IMG/VR virus record: IMGVR_UViG_3300049216_000317
Span: 84,961-148,960 of that record
Strand: one strand, 5' to 3'
DNA length: 64,000 nt
Origin: a virus
Lineage: Duplodnaviria; Heunggongvirae; Uroviricota; Caudoviricetes
The notes below the pieces were generated by a model. That model did not search any database. It saw only the letters and a program-made list of their open reading frames with translations, and was not told the DNA's origin. The position numbers and the translations under genes were made by a program. This document shows, piece by piece, positions 6,625 to 58,236 of this stretch; the stretch's first letter is position 1; the number at the start of each line of letters is the position of its first letter.

Positions 6625-9336
6625 TTATTTTTCTTTAACGATTAGGACACGGCTGGTGTTGTAGTTACTCAATGTTCCAGAGTAACTACCCCAGTAAACC
6701 TGAACAGTGTGAAAGCCTGGAGCAACGTTTAAGAGCCAATTTCGAACAACCTGGAAATTGTAACCATTGCCCGGCGCATTAAGGTCACCATTGGCTGGTC
6801 CGACGGGTACGGCATCCACATATATCTGAACGTTGCTGCCGTTGCCGGACCCGTTGTTGTTCATGTCGCCGTAAAACTGAATGTCGAGCGCGCCGCCCGA
6901 GGTCTTTACAATCACAGACATGTCCGGCATCGGCACCATCGCCGTGTATGAAGCCGAAGTAGTTGGGTTGCTCGTAATACCAACTGCCATCGCACTGGCC
7001 TTGGTTGCCGGAAGAGCATTCTTAATTGGAGTTGTCTGACGATCATCGCTGATGGAGTTTGATCCAACAGTTAATGTATTCTGGAAATCTGCATACAAGT
7101 TGGATTTCGGTGAGTACAAAGGAGTAATCACGTCCGCAGACGTAATATTTAGCCCGCTTCCCGTGGCCGTTGTCGTTAATTTTAAAGTGTGAAGTCCGAG
7201 TGTGAGGCCTGAGATTTGAAGCTTGGCTCCGAACCCAGTATCGTTTGTCCAAGTGCTCGTACCAGGAGTCCAGGCAGCCGTGCCTCCTCCGCTGGTGCCG
7301 TTTAAAGCCACCGCAGTGCCCGTATAAGCAGAACCATCGATTTGAATCGTGGAGGTAGTGGCAGTAGATACTCCGTATCCACCAATTTCGACGCCAGTTC
7401 CAAAGAACGTAAATTGAAGAGAATCGCCATTCGTAGTGGACCTGACGATCCAGCCATCGATCGCAGAAGTCTGAACGAGAGCTCCACCCGACCATGAGCC
7501 GGTGTAAGTGAACTCACGAAGAGCCGATTTCCTTAAAACTCCTGCGGAAATTGTCAGTGCAGACTGAGTGCCCGTGGTGGCCGAATAGTTGGCCATAATG
7601 TTGTATGATCCGAGCTGCACGCATCCAGACGGAATCGAGGGAGTTTTGGGCTGATAGACCTTGTAGTTGTATATGCAAAAATCCCAGGTCGTGCTTCCGT
7701 TGCAAAGAATTTGAACCGTATGCGTTCCATAGGGCAACCCTGATGCCACTTTTAAATTAGTCAATACTCCTGAAACAGAAGCAGTCGCAGGAACGTAGCC
7801 CTGAGACACCCCGTCAACATAAACTTGGTATATGGTGGAGGTATTGGTTCCGCTTAAGCTTGGAACATATCCAATGTCCAGCCCAGTGCCAACGAAGGTT
7901 AGGGTTACAAAATATCCAGAAAATCCCCGGACATCGATAACTGAATAGTTACCTACTACCGTACCAAGAGCGACTCCGCTGCTTGCCACCAACGTCGTAA
8001 CCCCATCATCAAGGGTAAATGCGGCAGCTTGCGCGTTGCCAGTGTACAAACTGAAGTCATCGCTTCGGCCTGCACCAAATTCTCTTGGGATATAGGTTCG
8101 AGCGAGTTCTTCATTCGTATGAGAAGCGGCGGTCAAATAGCTCGGCGAGGTCGCATTCTGAGTAAACGCTTGCCCACGCGTTCCTGCCAAAGTGATATAC
8201 TCAACAACGCGACCGCCAGTTGTTCCGACAACTGCTGCGTTGTAAGCCAAAGTTGACTGTGCAGAAAGAACTGATTTTTGTCCTTGGCTATAGGCGATGC
8301 CGGGGTTTACCGTCACAAGGCTTGATCCAGTAGAAACTTGGTTCAAAATTTCGAAACCTTCGAAATCAATATTTCCAGAGTTCAGTCGGATTTTTACGGT
8401 ATGAATACCCAGCGCAAGGCCGGATGCTGCCGGACAAACTAAATTGTAAGGATAGTTTCTTTGCGAAAACCCACTTGCGATTGTCGGGCGAATCGTTGTA
8501 GTGCCTTCTGTCCCGCCGTCTACTGTAACTCGAATATCTTTAGCGCCAGATGCGACGCTACTCAGCATATTGAGTCCTGTTCCATAAAAAACGATCTCAA
8601 CATAGTCATTCAAATTCGAAGAAAATGGACGGGGACCATCGGAATCAATTTGTGAAACCCAACCTGAACCGACAAGACGAACAAGGTTAAAGGTATCATT
8701 GGGAATTCCAAAGACAGGCTCACCGTTTGAGCCAAATTCAGTTTGAATAACTTGTACCGCCTGGGCGCTGATTCGTTCGATTCCGAATCGAGGCTTTAGA
8801 TCTTGAGAAATATCGACAATCGGTGCGCGATTCGTAATTTGAGAATAGAATGTTCCAGCAACAGGTGACCCTACGGTCGTCGTAGCCGTAATAATTGCGT
8901 CAGTTTGACTTACAAAACCCTGGAAAGCTGAATTTTGGTTTGCGTACAACTGCGTAAAGCGGTTGTCCATTGTGAACTGAATTTCAGGCTTCAAACCAAG
9001 TTTGAAAGCTTGAATATTAAGACCAGAAATCAACGAGAAGTTAAGGGTGACTTGCGAAGAAGTTCCGTCGGAACCGATCGAAGTGAACGTATAATCGTTT
9101 GAAGATCCGAGATCGAGCTTTTTACCATCGACAAACAACCAAAAGATGTCCGTAAACGCAGGAACAGCGCCGTTAGCCGCTGCTTGAAGTGTGAAGCCAA
9201 AGTTAATAATTGTCTGGCCAGACGTCGAAGTAGCATAGTACGAATTGATGACTGGCTGAGCAGGACTAAAGGGCAGGTCGTTGCTCGTGGTCTTCTTGAC
9301 GTTGGCTTTGCTGTTTAAACTTTGTGTAATACTCAT
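6625..9336 (-). CDS. tail fibre / receptor-binding protein (903 aa)
   Basis: S/T/G-rich repeated beta modules (TFVGTGLDI, GLPYGTHTV); paralogous to 10476-14345. Confidence 0.75.
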   Translation of the reverse strand: MSITQSLNSKANVKKTTSNDLPFSPAQPVINSYYATSTSGQTIINFGFTLQAAANGAVPAFTDIFWLFVDGKKLDLGSSNDYTFTSIGSDGTSSQVTLNFSLISGLNIQAFKLGLKPEIQFTMDNRFTQLYANQNSAFQGFVSQTDAIITATTTVGSPVAGTFYSQITNRAPIVDISQDLKPRFGIERISAQAVQVIQTEFGSNGEPVFGIPNDTFNLVRLVGSGWVSQIDSDGPRPFSSNLNDYVEIVFYGTGLNMLSSVASGAKDIRVTVDGGTEGTTTIRPTIASGFSQRNYPYNLVCPAASGLALGIHTVKIRLNSGNIDFEGFEILNQVSTGSSLVTVNPGIAYSQGQKSVLSAQSTLAYNAAVVGTTGGRVVEYITLAGTRGQAFTQNATSPSYLTAASHTNEELARTYIPREFGAGRSDDFSLYTGNAQAAAFTLDDGVTTLVASSGVALGTVVGNYSVIDVRGFSGYFVTLTFVGTGLDIGYVPSLSGTNTSTIYQVYVDGVSQGYVPATASVSGVLTNLKVASGLPYGTHTVQILCNGSTTWDFCIYNYKVYQPKTPSIPSGCVQLGSYNIMANYSATTGTQSALTISAGVLRKSALREFTYTGSWSGGALVQTSAIDGWIVRSTTNGDSLQFTFFGTGVEIGGYGVSTATTSTIQIDGSAYTGTAVALNGTSGGGTAAWTPGTSTWTNDTGFGAKLQISGLTLGLHTLKLTTTATGSGLNITSADVITPLYSPKSNLYADFQNTLTVGSNSISDDRQTTPIKNALPATKASAMAVGITSNPTTSASYTAMVPMPDMSVIVKTSGGALDIQFYGDMNNNGSGNGSNVQIYVDAVPVGPANGDLNAPGNGYNFQVVRNWLLNVAPGFHTVQVYWGSYSGTLSNYNTSRVLIVKEK

Positions 9337-43806: not shown

Positions 43807-44352
43807 TCATGCGCTAAGGGGGTTGCCCCAATCAACCATTTTGTTCTTCAAACTTGCTTGGTTCTCGTGGAATTCAACGTAAATCATCGTATTAGCTATG
43901 CTACGGTGGCCGAGAGTGTATTTCACCAAGCGAATATCCTTGGTCTTCTCATATAATTTTTGGGCAAAAGTATGGCGCAAAGAGTGGGTCTTCTTTTTGA
44001 CCGGACGATAGAGATTCCAAATCTGATTTAAACGTTTATAAGAGATGTTGAATGGTCGACCGGACTCGCGTGGGAGTGCCATAATTCGTTCAAAAAGCCA
44101 TTTAGGGATCGGGATGTTACGATCATCCGAACCCTTGATGCCCGTGATGTGAACGGTGCTCGTATCCGCATCGAAATCTTCCCATTTAACCAGGATCGCT
44201 TCCGTGCAGCGCGCGCCAGTCTGGGCCAAAAACCAAATCAGCGTCGTATCGCGAGGATTCTCTTTATGATATTTGGTCAGAGTTTCTTGCAACTGATCGC
44301 ATTCGCGATCCGAGAGAAATTTCTTAATCGACAGAGCATACCGTTTACTCAT
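43807..44352 (-). CDS. minimal tyrosine recombinase (catalytic domain only)
   Basis: TGAR, IKG, HSLRH, LGH and TMIY: all catalytic residues in 181 aa. Confidence 0.9.
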   Translation of the reverse strand: MSKRYALSIKKFLSDRECDQLQETLTKYHKENPRDTTLIWFLAQTGARCTEAILVKWEDFDADTSTVHITGIKGSDDRNIPIPKWLFERIMALPRESGRPFNISYKRLNQIWNLYRPVKKKTHSLRHTFAQKLYEKTKDIRLVKYTLGHRSIANTMIYVEFHENQASLKNKMVDWGNPLSA

Positions 44353-44635: not shown

Positions 44636-44723
44636 AGAAGGTTGGGTGAGTGGTTGAAACCACCAGTCTTGAAAACTGGCGAACCGCAAGGTTCCGTGGG
44701 TTCGAATCCCACACCTTCTGCCA
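44636..44723 (+). tRNA. tRNA-Ser(TGA)
   Basis: AGAAGGT/ACCTTCT acceptor, CT-TGA-AA loop, long variable arm, encoded CCA. Confidence 0.95.
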
Positions 44724-44771
44724 ATTGATTGATACAAACTAATCTTAAAGTATCAGTTAATTGTAGTTTGT

Positions 44772-44847
44772 TGCGGGGTAGAGCAGTTGGTAGCTCGCTT
44801 GGCTCATAACCAAGAGGTCGCCGGTTCAAGTCCGGCCCCCGCTACCA
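44772..44847 (+). tRNA. tRNA-Met(CAT), initiator-like
   Basis: CT-CAT-AA loop, 1:72 mismatch, A11-T24, CCA. Confidence 0.9.
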
Positions 44848-44854
44848 GTTTTCT

Positions 44855-44930
44855 GGGGGTGTAGCTCAGTTGGGAGAGCGCCAGCTTTGCAAGCTGGATG
44901 TCGCAGGTTCGATCCCTGTCACCTCCACCA
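44855..44930 (+). tRNA. tRNA-Ala(TGC)
   Basis: G3:T70 pair, TT-TGC-AA loop, CCA. Confidence 0.95.
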
Positions 44931-44954
44931 CTTTTGTTCTTTGAAATTAGATTT

Positions 44955-45029
44955 TCGCGGGTAGATCAAAGTAGATCGCGGCACCATTACATAGCCGAGA
45001 TGAAGAGTAGCGTCCTTCCCCGCGAACCA
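44955..45029 (+). ncRNA. non-canonical tRNA-like RNA
   Basis: TCGCGGG/CCCGCGA acceptor plus A-CCA; GATC/GATC D stem; CGGC/GCCG closing an 11-nt loop; GAAG/CTTC T stem with non-TTC loop. Confidence 0.8.
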
Positions 45030-45032
45030 TTT

Positions 45033-45122
45033 TTCTCGATAAGGGCGCAAGCCCGCGTGAAGCCTTATGCTCGATGCCCGTATCGCTGCATAAGGATAAA
45101 GAGAAGCCAGAAACGGGCATTG
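45033..45122 (+). ncRNA. structured RNA candidate (multistem plus pseudoknot)
   Basis: TTCTC/GAGAA; GGGC-GCAA-GCCC; CCTTATGC/GCATAAGG; loop ATGCCCGT complementary to downstream ACGGGCAT. Confidence 0.6.
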
Positions 45123-45123
45123 T

Positions 45124-45197
45124 TGCGCTTTAGCCAAGCGGTAAGGCACCAGATTTTGATTCTGGCATCCCTGGTTCGATCCCAGGAAGCGCATCCA
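45124..45197 (+). tRNA. tRNA-Gln(TTG)
   Basis: T1-A72, TT-TTG-AT loop, CCA. Confidence 0.92.
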
Positions 45198-45210
45198 TTT
45201 TAGTTTTTGT

Positions 45211-45296
45211 GTAAGCGTGGGTGAGTGGCTAAAACCACCAGACTGTAAATCTGGGCTCTTCGGGGTTCGCAAGTTCAAATCTTGCCGCTTACACCA
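45211..45296 (+). tRNA. tRNA-Tyr(GTA)
   Basis: CT-GTA-AA loop, long variable arm, CCA. Confidence 0.95.
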
Positions 45297-45312
45297 TTTG
45301 ATTTTGTTTTGT

Positions 45313-45388
45313 GCGCATGTAACTCAGCTGGTAGAGTACCTGACTTCCACTCAGGATGCCGCAGGTTCGAGCCCTGTCATGCGCTCCA
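45313..45388 (+). tRNA. tRNA-Gly(TCC)
   Basis: CT-TCC-AC loop, T73, CCA. Confidence 0.95.
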
Positions 45389-45403
45389 GTTTTTGTGTTT
45401 TGT

Positions 45404-45480
45404 CTAAGTATAGCTCAGTTTGGTAGAGCGCTTGGTTTGGGACCAAGAGGTCGTAGGTTCAAATCCTGCTACTTAGACCA
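45404..45480 (+). tRNA. tRNA-Pro(TGG)
   Basis: C1-G72, A73, TT-TGG-GA loop, CCA. Confidence 0.95.
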
Positions 45481-45493
45481 TTTTTGTTTTTGT

Positions 45494-45568
45494 TCGGCAG
45501 TAGCTCAGAGGTAGAGCTCACGACTGTTAATCGTGTGGTCGCATGTTCGATCCATGCCTGCCGAGCCA
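45494..45568 (+). tRNA. tRNA-Asn(GTT)
   Basis: T1-A72, G73, CT-GTT-AA loop, CCA. Confidence 0.95.
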
Positions 45569-45609: not shown

Positions 45610-46242
45610 ATGAATAATCTTCTTCTTCAGCTTTTCCTCATAGTACAAAATCGTTCAGCCAATACCTGGCTTGTCGGCGGATGCGTGCGCGATCTTATTC
45701 TTGGCATGGCACCGAAGGATTATGACATCGTCACTGACGCCAATATCGAAGAATTAAAAGAAGAATTCTTGGCCAATGGATGGGCCGTCAATGCTGTTGG
45801 CGAGAACTTCCTGGTCTATGCCGTCTCCAAAGAACACCAGCAATTTGAAATTGCCAATTTCCGCAAAGAATATGGGTTTACAGATGGGCGACGCCCCGAT
45901 CACGTAGAGATTGGAACCCTAGAGGAAGATGCCCAGCGCCGGGATTTCACGGTGAATTCAATTTATTGGAATCCAATTACCAACGAGTACAAAGATCCAA
46001 ATAATGGCAAGAAGGATCTCCAAAACAAGGTGCTGCGCTTTATTGGAAAGCCCAAAGACCGCATCAAGGAAGACTACTTACGCGTCTTCCGATTCTATCG
46101 TTTTTTAAGCAAATTTAAGAAAATCGGCATGGAGGCTGAACCCCGCTCCCTTTCAGCTTGCCGCGAAATGTTTCGCGAAGCCTATGGGAAAACCAATCCG
46201 GAGCGGGTTCGTATGGAAATCGAAAGAATGAGCCTTACTTAA
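45610..46242 (+). CDS. class II tRNA nucleotidyltransferase (CCA-adding family), head/neck domains only
   Basis: GGCVRDL...DYD (motif A), RRDFTVN (motif B), EDYLR (motif D); only 210 aa. Confidence 0.88.
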   Translation: MNNLLLQLFLIVQNRSANTWLVGGCVRDLILGMAPKDYDIVTDANIEELKEEFLANGWAVNAVGENFLVYAVSKEHQQFEIANFRKEYGFTDGRRPDHVEIGTLEEDAQRRDFTVNSIYWNPITNEYKDPNNGKKDLQNKVLRFIGKPKDRIKEDYLRVFRFYRFLSKFKKIGMEAEPRSLSACREMFREAYGKTNPERVRMEIERMSLT

Positions 46243-57759: not shown

Positions 57760-57837
57760 TGGCGGAATTGGTGGGATTCGAACCCACGATCCCCTGCTCG
57801 ACAGGCAGGCGCATTAGGCCAACTATGCTACAACTCC
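57760..57837 (-). tRNA. tRNA-Asp(GTC)
   Basis: GGAGTTG/CAATTCC acceptor, G73, CT-GTC-GA loop, CCA. Confidence 0.93.
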
Positions 57838-57838
57838 A

Positions 57839-58236
57839 TGGTGGACCTGGGGAGAATCGAACTCCCGTCCGCAAAAGCCTCCACTAAAGATCTACGTGCG
57901 TAGCGTGTTTAAATTCCCGCCGGACGGGGACGTTGGCTTGCGCTAACATCCTCCACCAAGTTTTTACGAGTAACTCTCTCGCGACGTTTTACCCTCCGTC
58001 GGAGGTGGCCGTCTTTACAGCGCGAGGCCCTCTGTTTTTTGCCCTTCCTTGGTAACAAGGTTTGGAAGGACGTACCCCGCCTTTGGGTTTTAAGGCCCGC
58101 AGGAAACCACAGCGGTTAGGCTGCGGCTTGTTCGAAATCAGCGTCGATTACGCTTTTGCATCTTTTTAAACCGGCCTGATGCTCCGGTACACGCACTCTA
58201 GATTTGGATCTTCCACGTCGAAACCATGTCAGGCCC
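57839..58236 (-). ncRNA. ssrA: tmRNA
   Basis: 5' GGGCCTGACATGGTTTCGAC; 3' GGGAGTTCGATTCTCCCCAGGTCCACCA; G3:T70; tag ORF GAC GCT GAT TTC GAA CAA GCC GCA GCC TAA at 58145-58116. Confidence 0.92.

What the first reader, a model, noticed from the sequence alone, without database searches (positions are those of the whole stretch)
44955..45029. Non-canonical tRNA with a compensated, tRNA-Pyl-like elbow and a 19-nt anticodon arm centred on TTA
Seen: TCGCGGG TA GATC AAAGTA GATC G CGGC ACCATTACATA GCCG AGAT GAAGA GTAGCGT CCTTC CCCGCGA A CCA. It lies between tRNA-Ala and tRNA-Gln. The acceptor and D stems are perfect, the anticodon and T stems keep 4 bp each, and CCA is encoded, but the invariant loop bases have changed. 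The D-loop has GT instead of GG and the T-loop has GTAGC instead of TTCRA. Those changes could be compensatory (G18:U55 kept, G19-C56 becomes U-A, U54-A58 becomes G-C), which a decaying pseudogene would be unlikely to show. Established: tRNA-Pyl also lacks the GG and TTC motifs, has a GAUC/GAUC D stem with a GU-containing loop, a U55-A56-G57 T-loop and a 19-nt anticodon arm. Differences from Pyl: T1-A72/A73 instead of G1-C72/G73, and no CUA. The central triplet is TTA (would read UAA); an alternative register gives TAC plus 2 extra nt. Inference: a functional tRNA mimic, such as a conditional suppressor, frameshift tRNA, anticodon-nuclease decoy or non-ribosomal aminoacyl donor.
Basis: partly seen in the sequence, partly recalled or inferred. 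Interest (0 to 1): 0.88.

Follow-up and report, generated by a model that had tools for sequence, protein, structure and literature searches.

The report
Conserved non-decoding tRNA mimic in phage
A 75-base RNA gene in a phage's tRNA cluster folds like a tRNA but has a rebuilt elbow and an unusable anticodon loop; relatives in an unrelated phage lineage keep the same fold through compensating mutations, so it is a real tRNA look-alike of unknown job and neither a stop-codon suppressor nor a decayed gene.

Summary
ARAGORN and Rfam miss it. A tRNA model built from the phage's own tRNAs aligns it end to end at 23 bits (best background 10). A sequence-blind cloverleaf+CCA descriptor finds only five real tRNAs and this element in the 164.5-kb genome (0.03 expected by chance).

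A loop-anchored pattern scan found a homolog in an unrelated 73-kb phage (G005). A third member lies in a G005 relative (L120). Across the three, 10 of 21 pairs show compensatory double changes. G000 and G005 share the odd D-loop (AAAGUA), the T-loop heptamer (GUAGCGU) and the AGAU variable motif.

The anticodon loop is not conserved in length or sequence, and two members have A33. Base 73 and pair 1-72 also vary. The UUA triplet, the 19-nt arm and the GAUC D stem are private to this copy. tRNA-Pyl membership fails. TAA is the main stop codon, and no PylRS-type core is encoded.

Best reading: a non-decoding tRNA mimic that acts through the tRNA body, with an unknown target. This scan earlier noted similar anticodon-remodelled tRNA mimics beside PTH2 genes on other DNA; PTH2 is absent here.

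The parts
44955..45029 (+). tRNA-shaped RNA gene (75 nt with encoded CCA): the finding
   Evidence: Cloverleaf. Scores 23.2 bits end to end with the own-array tRNA model. Only non-tRNA hit of the pairing-only descriptor. Homologs L104:3022-3096 at 50.4 bits and L120:7376-7450 at 34.3 bits.
44955..44961 (+). acceptor stem 5' strand; pairs with 45019-45025
   Evidence: 7 Watson-Crick pairs. Pairs 1-72, 2-71, 3-70 and 7-66 change on both sides among the three members.
44964..44977 (+). D arm: stem GAUC/GAUC, loop AAAGUA (GU in place of G18G19)
   Evidence: Pairs 11-24 and 13-22 are compensatory. The loop is identical in G005 and is AAUUUA in L120.
44979..44997 (+). anticodon-arm equivalent: 4 bp plus A.A, 9-nt loop CCAUUACAU
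   Evidence: The model inserts 2 nt after C32 and puts UAC at 34-36. Loop length and sequence are not conserved in the homologs.
44998..45001 (+). variable region AGAU
   Evidence: The AGAU motif is present in all three members (GAGAU, AGAUAU) and in G005 unit 2. A15/U48 and G26/A44 fit the standard core contacts.
45002..45018 (+). T arm: GAAG/CUUC plus A53.C61, loop GUAGCGU
   Evidence: Pairs 50-64 and 51-63 are compensatory. G005 has the heptamer GUAGCGU with one extra G. L120 has UAUCCAAU.
45019..45029 (+). acceptor 3' strand, A73, encoded CCA
   Evidence: A T-rich trailer follows, as after the neighbouring tRNAs.
44636..45568 (+). host tRNA array: Ser-Met-Ala-[mimic]-[second structured unit]-Gln-Tyr-Gly-Pro-Asn
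   Evidence: ARAGORN and Rfam.
45033..45109 (+). second structured, CCA-ended 77-nt unit in the same gap (UUCUC...GAGAA-G-CCA); context, not shown to be related
   Evidence: RNAfold gives -26.4 kcal/mol with a closing stem and two hairpins. The tRNA model gives no match. No similarity to the G005 or L120 arrays.

Best explanation
This is a gene for a tRNA mimic. The RNA is about 75 nt long, L-shaped and CCA-ended. It is transcribed inside the phage tRNA array and is most likely matured like its neighbours, with RNase P cutting at the 5' end and trimming back to the encoded CCA.

It keeps the tRNA body. That means a 7-bp acceptor stem stacked on the T stem, a 4-bp D stem, and the usual core contacts (U8/A14, A15/U48, G26/A44, G45). 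Its elbow is rebuilt: G18.U55 is kept, U19-A56 replaces G19-C56, and G54/C58 replace U54/A58.

Its anticodon loop is degenerate, so it does not decode codons. It therefore works through the tRNA body. The most likely role is as a competitor or decoy for a host protein that binds or attacks tRNAs, and the target is unknown.

Shown: the fold, its conservation, and the lack of a conserved anticodon or acceptor identity. Inferred: expression, processing and the decoy role.
For: (1) It is tRNA-shaped beyond chance.

(2) Homologs exist in G005/G006 (L104:3022-3096) and in a G005 relative (L120:7376-7450, same as L124). G005 is a 73-kb phage of 54.8% GC with no tblastx or blastn similarity to this 164.5-kb phage of 47% GC.

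(3) Covariation. 58 of 63 cells are standard pairs and 10 of 21 pairs have changes on both sides. For the acceptor and D helices on an ungapped alignment, 97% of cells pair and 6 of 11 pairs are compensatory. 0 of 500 shuffles reach this, and slid registers give at most 1.

(4) Between G000 and G005 the unpaired parts agree while the stems differ. UA 8-9, the AAAGUA D-loop, G26, the AGAU motif, the GUAGCGU heptamer, C61-C62 and A73-CCA are the same.

(5) The parts needed for decoding or charging are not conserved. The loops are CCAUUACAU, AAUACAA and CAACUAA, with A33 in two members. Base 73 is A, A, U. Pair 1-72 is U-A, A.C, G-C.

(6) In G005 the element is one of three non-canonical CCA-ended tRNA-shaped units around a single canonical tRNA-Met. 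One of them has a GGCA tetraloop where the anticodon loop should be. L120 has a similar multi-unit array.

(7) The phage invests in translation repair: RtcB, a minimal CCA-adding-family enzyme next to the array and a tmRNA. This fits a conflict over tRNAs.
Against: No expression or processing data exist. There are only three independent members from two lineages.

The G005 homolog was found with a pattern that fixed the D-loop and T-loop letters. 'Identical loops' is therefore partly built into the search, and L120 has different loops.

This copy has two non-pairs (A31.A39 and A53.C61) and 2 extra loop bases relative to G005, so it could be a degenerating copy of a functional family.

The decoy target is pure inference. 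No defence system or binding partner was identified. G005 has no RtcB or CCA-enzyme homolog. Relatives of the CCA enzyme have no mimic beside them.
Confidence: 0.55

Rival explanations
1. It is a specialised decoding tRNA derived from tRNA-Val(UAC). It is valylated by the host ValRS and reads GUA/GUG. The enlarged loop in this copy allows frameshifting, hopping or five-base decoding.
For: The tRNA model puts U33-UAC-A37 in register. G005 also has UAC-A at the centre of a 7-nt loop. This copy carries the bacterial Val determinants A73, G3-C70, A35 and C36, plus G45 (PMC9976931). The array has no tRNA-Val, and its other members are U34/G34 tRNAs.
Against: G005 has A33 and a G.A closing mismatch. 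L120 has loop CAACUAA (A33, triplet ACU) and U73. G005 has C3-G70. Loop length differs between homologs (9 versus 7). A shared 4-nt UACA in freely aligned loops is weak evidence. ARAGORN and Rfam both reject this copy.
Confidence: 0.12
2. It is a relic: a tRNA gene that lost function and persists in the array without a role.
For: tRNA finders do not call it. It has two mismatches (31-39 and 53-61), a 2-nt insertion in the loop, and none of the GG or T-Psi-C motifs. It is absent from the nearest relatives found by terminase (53% identity) and from relatives found by the CCA enzyme.
Against: 19 of 21 pairs are Watson-Crick, with no G.U pair. The changes cluster in the elbow while U8, A14, A15/U48, A21, G26/A44 and C61 are intact. 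Three homologs keep all four helices through 10 compensatory pair changes. Neutral decay does not produce that pattern.
Confidence: 0.15
3. It is a processing signal. RNase P and 3' nucleases cut at the tRNA-like fold to punctuate or stabilise a polycistronic transcript, like the t-elements of plant mitochondria. The released RNA itself has no function.
For: In G005 the element ends 44 nt before the start codon of a protein gene that has a GGGAG ribosome-binding site. In this phage the array ends 41 nt before the CCA-enzyme gene. Every unit ends in NCCA followed by a (A)UUU-rich spacer. No sigma-70-type promoter or terminator lies inside the array. t-elements are documented in PMC1920247.
Against: A processing signal needs only the acceptor/T-arm minihelix. 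It does not explain the conserved D-loop, variable region and T-loop letters, nor the maintained D and anticodon stems. Ordinary tRNAs in the same array would already supply cleavage sites.
Confidence: 0.12
4. It is a tRNA-Pyl-like orthogonal tRNA or a UAA suppressor.
For: UUA is the central triplet of the 11 unpaired bases. The elbow lacks GG and T-Psi-C, as in M. barkeri tRNA-Pyl.
Against: It fails every defining Pyl feature (see the membership test). No PF01409 class II core is present in the genome. TAA is the commonest stop, at 112 of 209, and the genome is 91% coding under table 11. UUA, the 19-nt arm and the GAUC stem are absent from the homologs.
Confidence: 0.02
5. The stretch is protein-coding on the minus strand: a 57-aa ORF at 44947-45120 fills the gap.
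For: The ORF exists and nearly fills the gap.
Against: It has no Pfam match. Its start lies against the tRNA-Gln gene, leaving no room for a ribosome-binding site. The homologs conserve RNA pairing, not a reading frame.
Confidence: 0.01

Closest known systems
Polycistrons of irregular tRNA sequences and inactive allo-tRNAs from soil and peat metagenomes and phage tRNA clusters (Mukai et al. 2017, PMC5389517)
   Same: They are non-canonical tRNA-shaped genes in tandem arrays from soil, peat and moss-type habitats. Standard finders miss some of them. Several were shown to be charged but unused in translation, or not charged at all. The authors proposed them as regulatory RNAs or RNAs linked to conflict systems.
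   Different: Those RNAs are defined by 8/4 or 9/3 acceptor/T geometry, G-1, extra loops or long variable arms. This family has 7/5 (7/4+1) geometry, a short variable region and a rebuilt D/T-loop elbow. No sequence relationship was tested.
Anticodon-remodelled tRNA-mimic arrays beside PTH2-like genes, noted earlier by this scan on other phage DNA (e1-4090461, e1-4035529, e1-4043311; unpublished AI notes)
   Same: These are tandem cloverleaf tRNA-like genes with enlarged or closed anticodon loops that lack U33. They were interpreted as non-decoding mimics.
   Different: No PTH2 (PF01981) match occurs in G000 or G005. A sequence look-up found no look-alike in the scan's index. The elbow remodelling is not mentioned in those notes.
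Phage T4 RNAs C and D
   Same: They are stable small RNAs of unknown function made by a phage that carries its own tRNA genes, and they are expressed and detectable by Northern blot (PMC9697503). That they lie in the T4 tRNA region and are processed with the tRNAs is my own knowledge, not checked here.
   Different: They are longer, not a 75-nt cloverleaf, and show no known similarity.
tRNA-Pyl (M. barkeri, D. hafniense)
   Same: It lacks G18G19 and the U54-Psi55-C56 motif yet folds into an L-shape (PMC7609411). From memory only, the M. barkeri D arm and T-loop contain the same GUA and UAG letters.
   Different: [quoted passage not shown] All of these differ here, and the resemblances are not shared by the homologs.
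Valine-accepting tRNA-like structures of plant viruses (TYMV TLS-Val), B. cereus tRNA-Other and herpesvirus vtRNAs
   Same: They are viral or bacterial RNAs that mimic the tRNA body, may or may not be charged, and do not decode (PMC9976931; PMC5389517).
   Different: They have other folds (a pseudoknotted acceptor in the TLS) and other hosts. Herpesvirus vtRNAs come from my own knowledge.
Phage tRNAs that escape tRNA-targeting defences (T5 tRNAs with altered anticodon loops)
   Same: Both sit in a phage tRNA array in a setting of host attack on tRNAs, with sequence changes in the loops. This rests on my own knowledge and on the scan notes.
   Different: Those are functional decoding tRNAs with 7-nt loops and canonical elbows.

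Membership tests
Canonical elongator tRNA (Rfam RF00005) | Score at or above the family gathering threshold (29 bits), or a call by ARAGORN | tested here: not met
   No RF00005 match at E<=10 on 44900-45140. Not called by ARAGORN at default, -ps80, -ps60 or -ps50. The G005 homolog scores 26.1 bits, also below threshold.
Canonical elongator tRNA (Rfam RF00005) | Cloverleaf with 7/4/5/5-bp helices and an NCCA end in the standard spacing | tested here: met
   7, 4, 4+1 and 4+1 pairs with standard spacers. Full-length alignment to the own-array model at 23.2 bits.
Canonical elongator tRNA (Rfam RF00005) | 7-nt anticodon loop with U33 and a purine at 37 | tested here: not met
   9 to 11 unpaired bases here. 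The homologs have 7-nt loops, but with A33.
Canonical elongator tRNA (Rfam RF00005) | G18G19 in the D-loop, and U54-U55-C56-R57-A58 with G53-C61 in the T arm | tested here: not met
   The D-loop is AAAGUA. The T-loop is GUAGCGU. Position 53-61 is A.C.
tRNA-Pyl | CUA anticodon | tested here: not met
   No CUA in the loop ACCAUUACAUA. Feature taken from PMC7609411.
tRNA-Pyl | 6-bp anticodon stem | tested here: not met
   4 Watson-Crick pairs, then A.A.
tRNA-Pyl | 3-nt variable loop | tested here: not met
   AGAU, 4 nt. The homologs have 5-6 nt.
tRNA-Pyl | G73 and G1:C72 (the universal identity elements) | tested here: not met
   A73 and U1-A72.
tRNA-Pyl | A cognate PylRS (class II core) in the genome | tested here: not met
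   PF01409 gives no match at E<=1 in the complete 164.5-kb genome, and all 14 control genomes ring. A host-encoded enzyme cannot be excluded.
tRNA-Pyl | D and T loops without GG and T-Psi-C | tested here: met
   This trait is shared with many other non-canonical tRNAs, so it does not define membership.
Bacterial tRNA-Val (identity set A73, G3-C70, U4-A69, A35, C36; PMC9976931) | The identity set is present and conserved among homologs | tested here: inconclusive
   This copy has A73, G3-C70, A35 and C36 (in the model's register) but C4-G69. G005 has A73, A35 and C36 but C3-G70. L120 has U73 and no A35-C36.
PTH2-linked phage tRNA-mimic cassette (earlier notes of this scan) | A PTH2-like gene directly upstream of the mimic array | tested here: not met
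   PF01981 gives no match in G000 or G005. There is a weak 20.8-bit match only in G001, which has no mimic.
Non-decoding tRNA mimic (functional class, not a sequence family) | Conserved tRNA body with a non-conserved or closed anticodon loop | tested here: met
Non-decoding tRNA mimic (functional class, not a sequence family) | Stable processed RNA in vivo, uncharged or unused by ribosomes | not testable with these tools
   No RNA data for this uncultured phage.

The most novel reading that the evidence does not exclude
Phages from unrelated lineages carry a dedicated family of tRNA-body mimics. The elbow has been re-engineered (G18.U55, U19-A56, G54/C58) and the anticodon is disabled. In G005-type phages several such units surround one real tRNA-Met. 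They act as decoys or sponges that neutralise tRNA-targeting immune effectors or tRNA-sensing host factors. This would be an RNA-based counter-defence that all tRNA finders miss.
Probability: 0.3. Interest if true: 0.8.

Novelty: new variant of a known kind. Interest (0 to 1): 0.62.

Why it matters
Standard tRNA finders and Rfam miss this element, so RNAs of this kind are absent from phage annotations. It shows that a phage can keep the tRNA body under selection while giving up decoding, and that the 'invariant' elbow nucleotides can be replaced as a set.

If the RNA proves to be a decoy for tRNA-targeting defences, it would add an RNA-based counter-defence to the phage tRNAs and repair enzymes already known. 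If it is charged, it would be a natural tRNA scaffold with a non-standard elbow, which is of interest for orthogonal translation. Either way it gives a concrete 75-nt test object with two natural variants for RNase P, CCA-enzyme, synthetase and nuclease assays.

Tried and rejected
Exact and stem-anchored DNA patterns:
- Two viral contigs patterns from the candidate gave 0 hits each.
- The Met-Ala junction pattern gave 0 hits.
- The one metagenome scan, with a 5'-half stem pattern, gave 65 loci. All were GC-rich chance matches of at most 21.7 bits against 111 for self.
- Two genome-contig scans (185,579 species) gave 0 hits, one with the 3'-half pattern and one loop-anchored.
- Two further viral scans that relaxed one loop at a time found only the same two contigs plus three chance hits.

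blastn against 50,697 phage records:
- Nothing for the candidate gap.
- For the G005 copy, only short chance matches. Pseudomonas phages SM1 and phiAH14a were examined and are not members.

Relatives:
- Relatives found through the CCA enzyme (L002, L005-L009) and through the terminase (G002-G004) lack the element.
- Their tRNA-Ala genes are not followed by it.
- More distant relatives of G005 (L126-L129) have no tRNA-shaped unit near the marker gene.
- One look-up returned no DNA.

Sequencing runs:
- Only the source moss-metagenome run covers 44970-45103. Other runs matched ordinary tRNAs only.
- No RNA holder was listed.

Other negatives:
- There is no support for a link to the minimal CCA enzyme. 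No mimic sits beside it in its relatives, and G005 has no homolog of it or of RtcB.
- I considered an initiator-like reading: an A1.C72 mismatch with G2-C71/C3-G70 in G005, which sits next to an fMet-type tRNA. I dropped it because L120 has G1-C72 and U73, and no member has the three G-C pairs in the anticodon stem.
- YrlA (Y RNA-like) gave only a 19.5-bit sub-threshold overlap spanning tRNA-Met and the mimic in G005.

Full report
CONTEXT

The window is bases 84,961-148,960 of a complete 164,531-bp IMG/VR virus record with direct terminal repeats. It was assembled from a moss metagenome. The phage is a myovirus-type: it encodes a tail sheath, portal, terminase, a large DNA polymerase, GroEL and NAMPT. 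GC content is 47%. A crude ORF call gives 91% coding under table 11, with stops TAA 112, TGA 67 and TAG 30, so there is no sign of stop-codon recoding.

The tRNA array at 44636-45568(+) reads Ser(UGA)-Met(CAU)-Ala(UGC)-[193-nt gap]-Gln-Tyr-Gly-Pro-Asn. A tRNA-Asp and a tmRNA lie on the other strand at 57760-58236. A 181-aa integrase C-terminal fragment lies upstream. A 210-aa minimal CCA-adding-family enzyme starts 41 nt after the array. RtcB is encoded at genome 33120-34313.

THE OBSERVATION

RNAfold gives -23.5 kcal/mol with z = -3.1. In the whole 193-nt gap the 5' acceptor strand can also pair with a downstream CCCGCG, so the cloverleaf is the fold of the processed 75-mer and not necessarily of the precursor.

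ARAGORN at any threshold and Rfam tRNA at E<=10 do not report it. I ran two tests that do not depend on the conserved tRNA loop letters.
- A covariance model built from seven class-I tRNAs of this phage, run without filters, aligns the element over all 76 model positions at 23.2 bits. The real class-I tRNAs score 70-89, the two class-II tRNAs 38-46, and the best background (antisense tRNAs) 10.
- A descriptor requires only 7/7 acceptor pairs, 4/4 D pairs, at least 4/5 anticodon and T pairs, standard spacers and NCCA. It finds six places in the genome on both strands: five real tRNAs and this element. In 200 simulated genomes it finds 0.03 per genome.

HOMOLOGS

Searches that fixed the stems failed. 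A pattern that fixed only the D-loop, G26, the T-loop and CCA, and left every stem free, matched 12 IMG/VR loci. Two of them carry a 75-nt sequence that scores 50.4 bits (E about 1e-14) against a model built from the candidate alone. These are L104:3022-3096 in G005 (73,277 bp, rated complete) and L097 in G006. G006 is identical to G005 over the 1.36 kb compared, so it is the same phage and not independent evidence.

G005 has 54.8% GC and no tblastx (E<1e-8) or blastn (E<1e-3) similarity to this phage. I found a relative of G005 through a neighbouring protein (70% identity). It carries a third, more diverged member at L120:7376-7450, scoring 34.3 bits with the candidate model and 22.8 with the generic tRNA model. 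L124 is the same sequence.

In both G005 and L120 the element follows a tRNA-Met(CAU) gene, by 8 nt and 5 nt respectively. Here tRNA-Met lies two genes upstream.

WHAT IS CONSERVED

I parsed the three sequences helix by helix. 58 of 63 pair cells are standard. 10 of 21 pairs show changes on both sides that keep pairing: 1-72, 2-71, 3-70, 7-66, 11-24, 13-22, 27-43, 28-42, 50-64 and 51-63.

The acceptor and D helices align without gaps, so I ran the formal count on those. 97% of cells pair and 6 of 11 pairs are compensatory. 0 of 500 shuffles reach the observed values, and sliding the partner by 1-3 columns leaves at most 1.

Between G000 and G005 the unpaired parts are the same: UA 8-9, D-loop AAAGUA, G26, the AGAU motif, the T-loop heptamer GUAGCGU followed by CC, and A73-CCA. 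The stems differ at eight pairs.

There is a caveat. The D-loop, G26 and T-loop letters were fixed by the search pattern, so their identity is partly built into the search. The UA, the AGAU motif, C61-C62, A73, the equal spacing and all four helices were not fixed. L120 has other loops (AAUUUA and UAUCCAAU), so the elbow letters are not invariant across the family.

Several core positions follow the standard tRNA tertiary scheme in all three members: U8, A14, A15 with U48, A21, G26 with A44, and G10-C25 with G45. This reads the sequences against established tRNA structure.

WHAT IS NOT CONSERVED

The anticodon-loop equivalents are CCAUUACAU, AAUACAA and CAACUAA. The first is 9 nt closed by A.A, or 11 unpaired bases. 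Two members have A33 where U33 is nearly universal (own knowledge). The triplet at 34-36 is UAC, UAC and ACU. Position 31-39 is A.A, G.A and U-A. Base 73 is A, A, U. Pair 1-72 is U-A, A.C and G-C. Pairs 2-71 and 3-70 flip.

Neither an anticodon nor an acceptor identity set is shared. This copy does carry most bacterial valine determinants (A73, G3-C70, A35, C36 and G45; PMC9976931), but the set is not kept in the homologs.

The UUA 'central triplet', the 19-nt arm and the GAUC/GAUC D stem occur only in this copy.

ARRAY CONTEXT IN THE OTHER LINEAGE

G005 has a single canonical tRNA. The generic tRNA model without filters finds four tandem tRNA-shaped units at L104:2776-3096:
- an 82-nt unit with a 16-nt 'anticodon' loop;
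- a 68-nt unit whose anticodon loop is replaced by a GGCA tetraloop, with variable region AGAU;
- tRNA-Met;
- the homolog of this finding.

L120 has tRNA-Met, the homolog, and further CCA-ended units at 7212-7293, about 7455-7575, 7580-7654 and 7660-7787. Each is followed by AUUU. Only the first of these scored above background with the tRNA model; the others were read by eye.

A unit with a tetraloop in place of the anticodon cannot decode. This supports reading the whole group as tRNA-body mimics.

tRNA-Pyl AND SUPPRESSION

The review PMC7609411 gives the defining features of tRNA-Pyl: a 3-nt variable loop, a 6-bp anticodon stem, a CUA anticodon, G73 and G1:C72. [quoted passage not shown] The element meets none of these. 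It shares only the absence of GG and T-Psi-C.

No PF01409 class II core is found in the complete genome, while all 14 control genomes ring. TAA is the commonest stop. The Pyl-like and UAA-suppressor readings are rejected.

MECHANISM

Shown: the fold, its maintenance by compensatory change in two unrelated phage lineages, and the lack of conserved decoding or identity elements.

Inferred: co-transcription with the array, RNase P and 3' maturation to a CCA-ended L-shaped RNA, and action through the tRNA body.

Among body-dependent roles I rank a decoy or competitor for a tRNA-binding host factor first. The reasons are that the D-loop, variable region and T-loop are kept as well as the acceptor/T minihelix, and that the phage carries RtcB, a CCA-family enzyme and a tmRNA. 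Nothing identifies the target. The link to the CCA enzyme is not supported in relatives.

Rival readings are a processing signal, a specialised Val-type decoder, and a relic. They are scored in their own sections.

COMPARISON WITH KNOWN SYSTEMS

The nearest published description is the 'polycistrons of irregular tRNAs' and inactive allo-tRNAs of Mukai et al. 2017 (PMC5389517). Those come from soil and peat data and have different geometry. T4 RNAs C and D are still of unknown function (PMC9697503).

Earlier notes of this same scan describe phage arrays of anticodon-remodelled tRNA mimics next to PTH2-like genes on other DNA. PTH2 is absent from G000 and G005, and a sequence look-up found no look-alike. 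I therefore treat them as the same kind of object but not the same family.

I found no paper describing this elbow variant or this family. My literature search was limited.

VERDICT

This is a real, conserved, non-canonical tRNA-shaped RNA gene. It is best read as a non-decoding tRNA mimic. Its tRNA-Pyl and UAA readings do not.

Noticed in passing
window 45033-45109 (+): The rest of the Ala-Gln gap is a second structured unit of 77 nt. A 5-bp closing stem UUCUC/GAGAA is followed by G and CCA, and it encloses a GGGC-GCAA-GCCC hairpin and an 8-bp hairpin. The tRNA model does not match it, and it shows no similarity to the G005 or L120 arrays. It may be another CCA-ended mimic.
   Followed up: partly
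L104:2776-2857 and L104:2865-2932 (G005): Two more non-canonical CCA-ended tRNA-shaped units lie upstream of the only canonical tRNA (Met) of a complete 73-kb phage. The second has a GGCA tetraloop in place of the anticodon loop and the same AGAU variable region. About 250 nt of further non-coding, hairpin-rich sequence precedes them (L104:2525-2775).
   Followed up: partly
L120:7190-7790: An array of about six units, each ending in NCCA followed by AUUU. Only tRNA-Met is canonical. Two units of about 120 nt have acceptor/T-arm modules around large inserts.
   Followed up: partly
L120:1339-1746: A 135-aa protein with an RF-1 (peptidyl-tRNA hydrolase / ArfB-like) domain lies in the same phage contig as the mimic array. 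This is a possible ribosome-rescue function and parallels the tmRNA of the window's phage.
   Followed up: no
window 45610-46242 (+) and L002, L008, L009: The 210-aa minimal CCA-adding-family enzyme has hundreds of phage homologs of about 207 aa. In G001 it follows a weak PTH2-like ORF (20.8 bits). In L008 and L009 a tRNA-Ala lies less than 1.1 kb upstream.
   Followed up: partly
window 44772-44847 (+): The phage tRNA-Met(CAU) has a U1.U72 mismatch and A73, which are initiator-like acceptor features. It has only two G-C pairs next to the anticodon loop.
   Followed up: no
window 43807-44352 (-): A 181-aa ORF matches only the C-terminal catalytic part of tyrosine integrases and sits directly upstream of the tRNA array. 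It may be a remnant of the element that brought the array in.
   Followed up: no
L025:1501-1577 (G002): The 163-kb relative found by terminase carries a single weak tRNA-like gene. Rfam scores it at 28.4 bits, just under threshold, and ARAGORN calls it tRNA-Ile(UAU).
   Followed up: no
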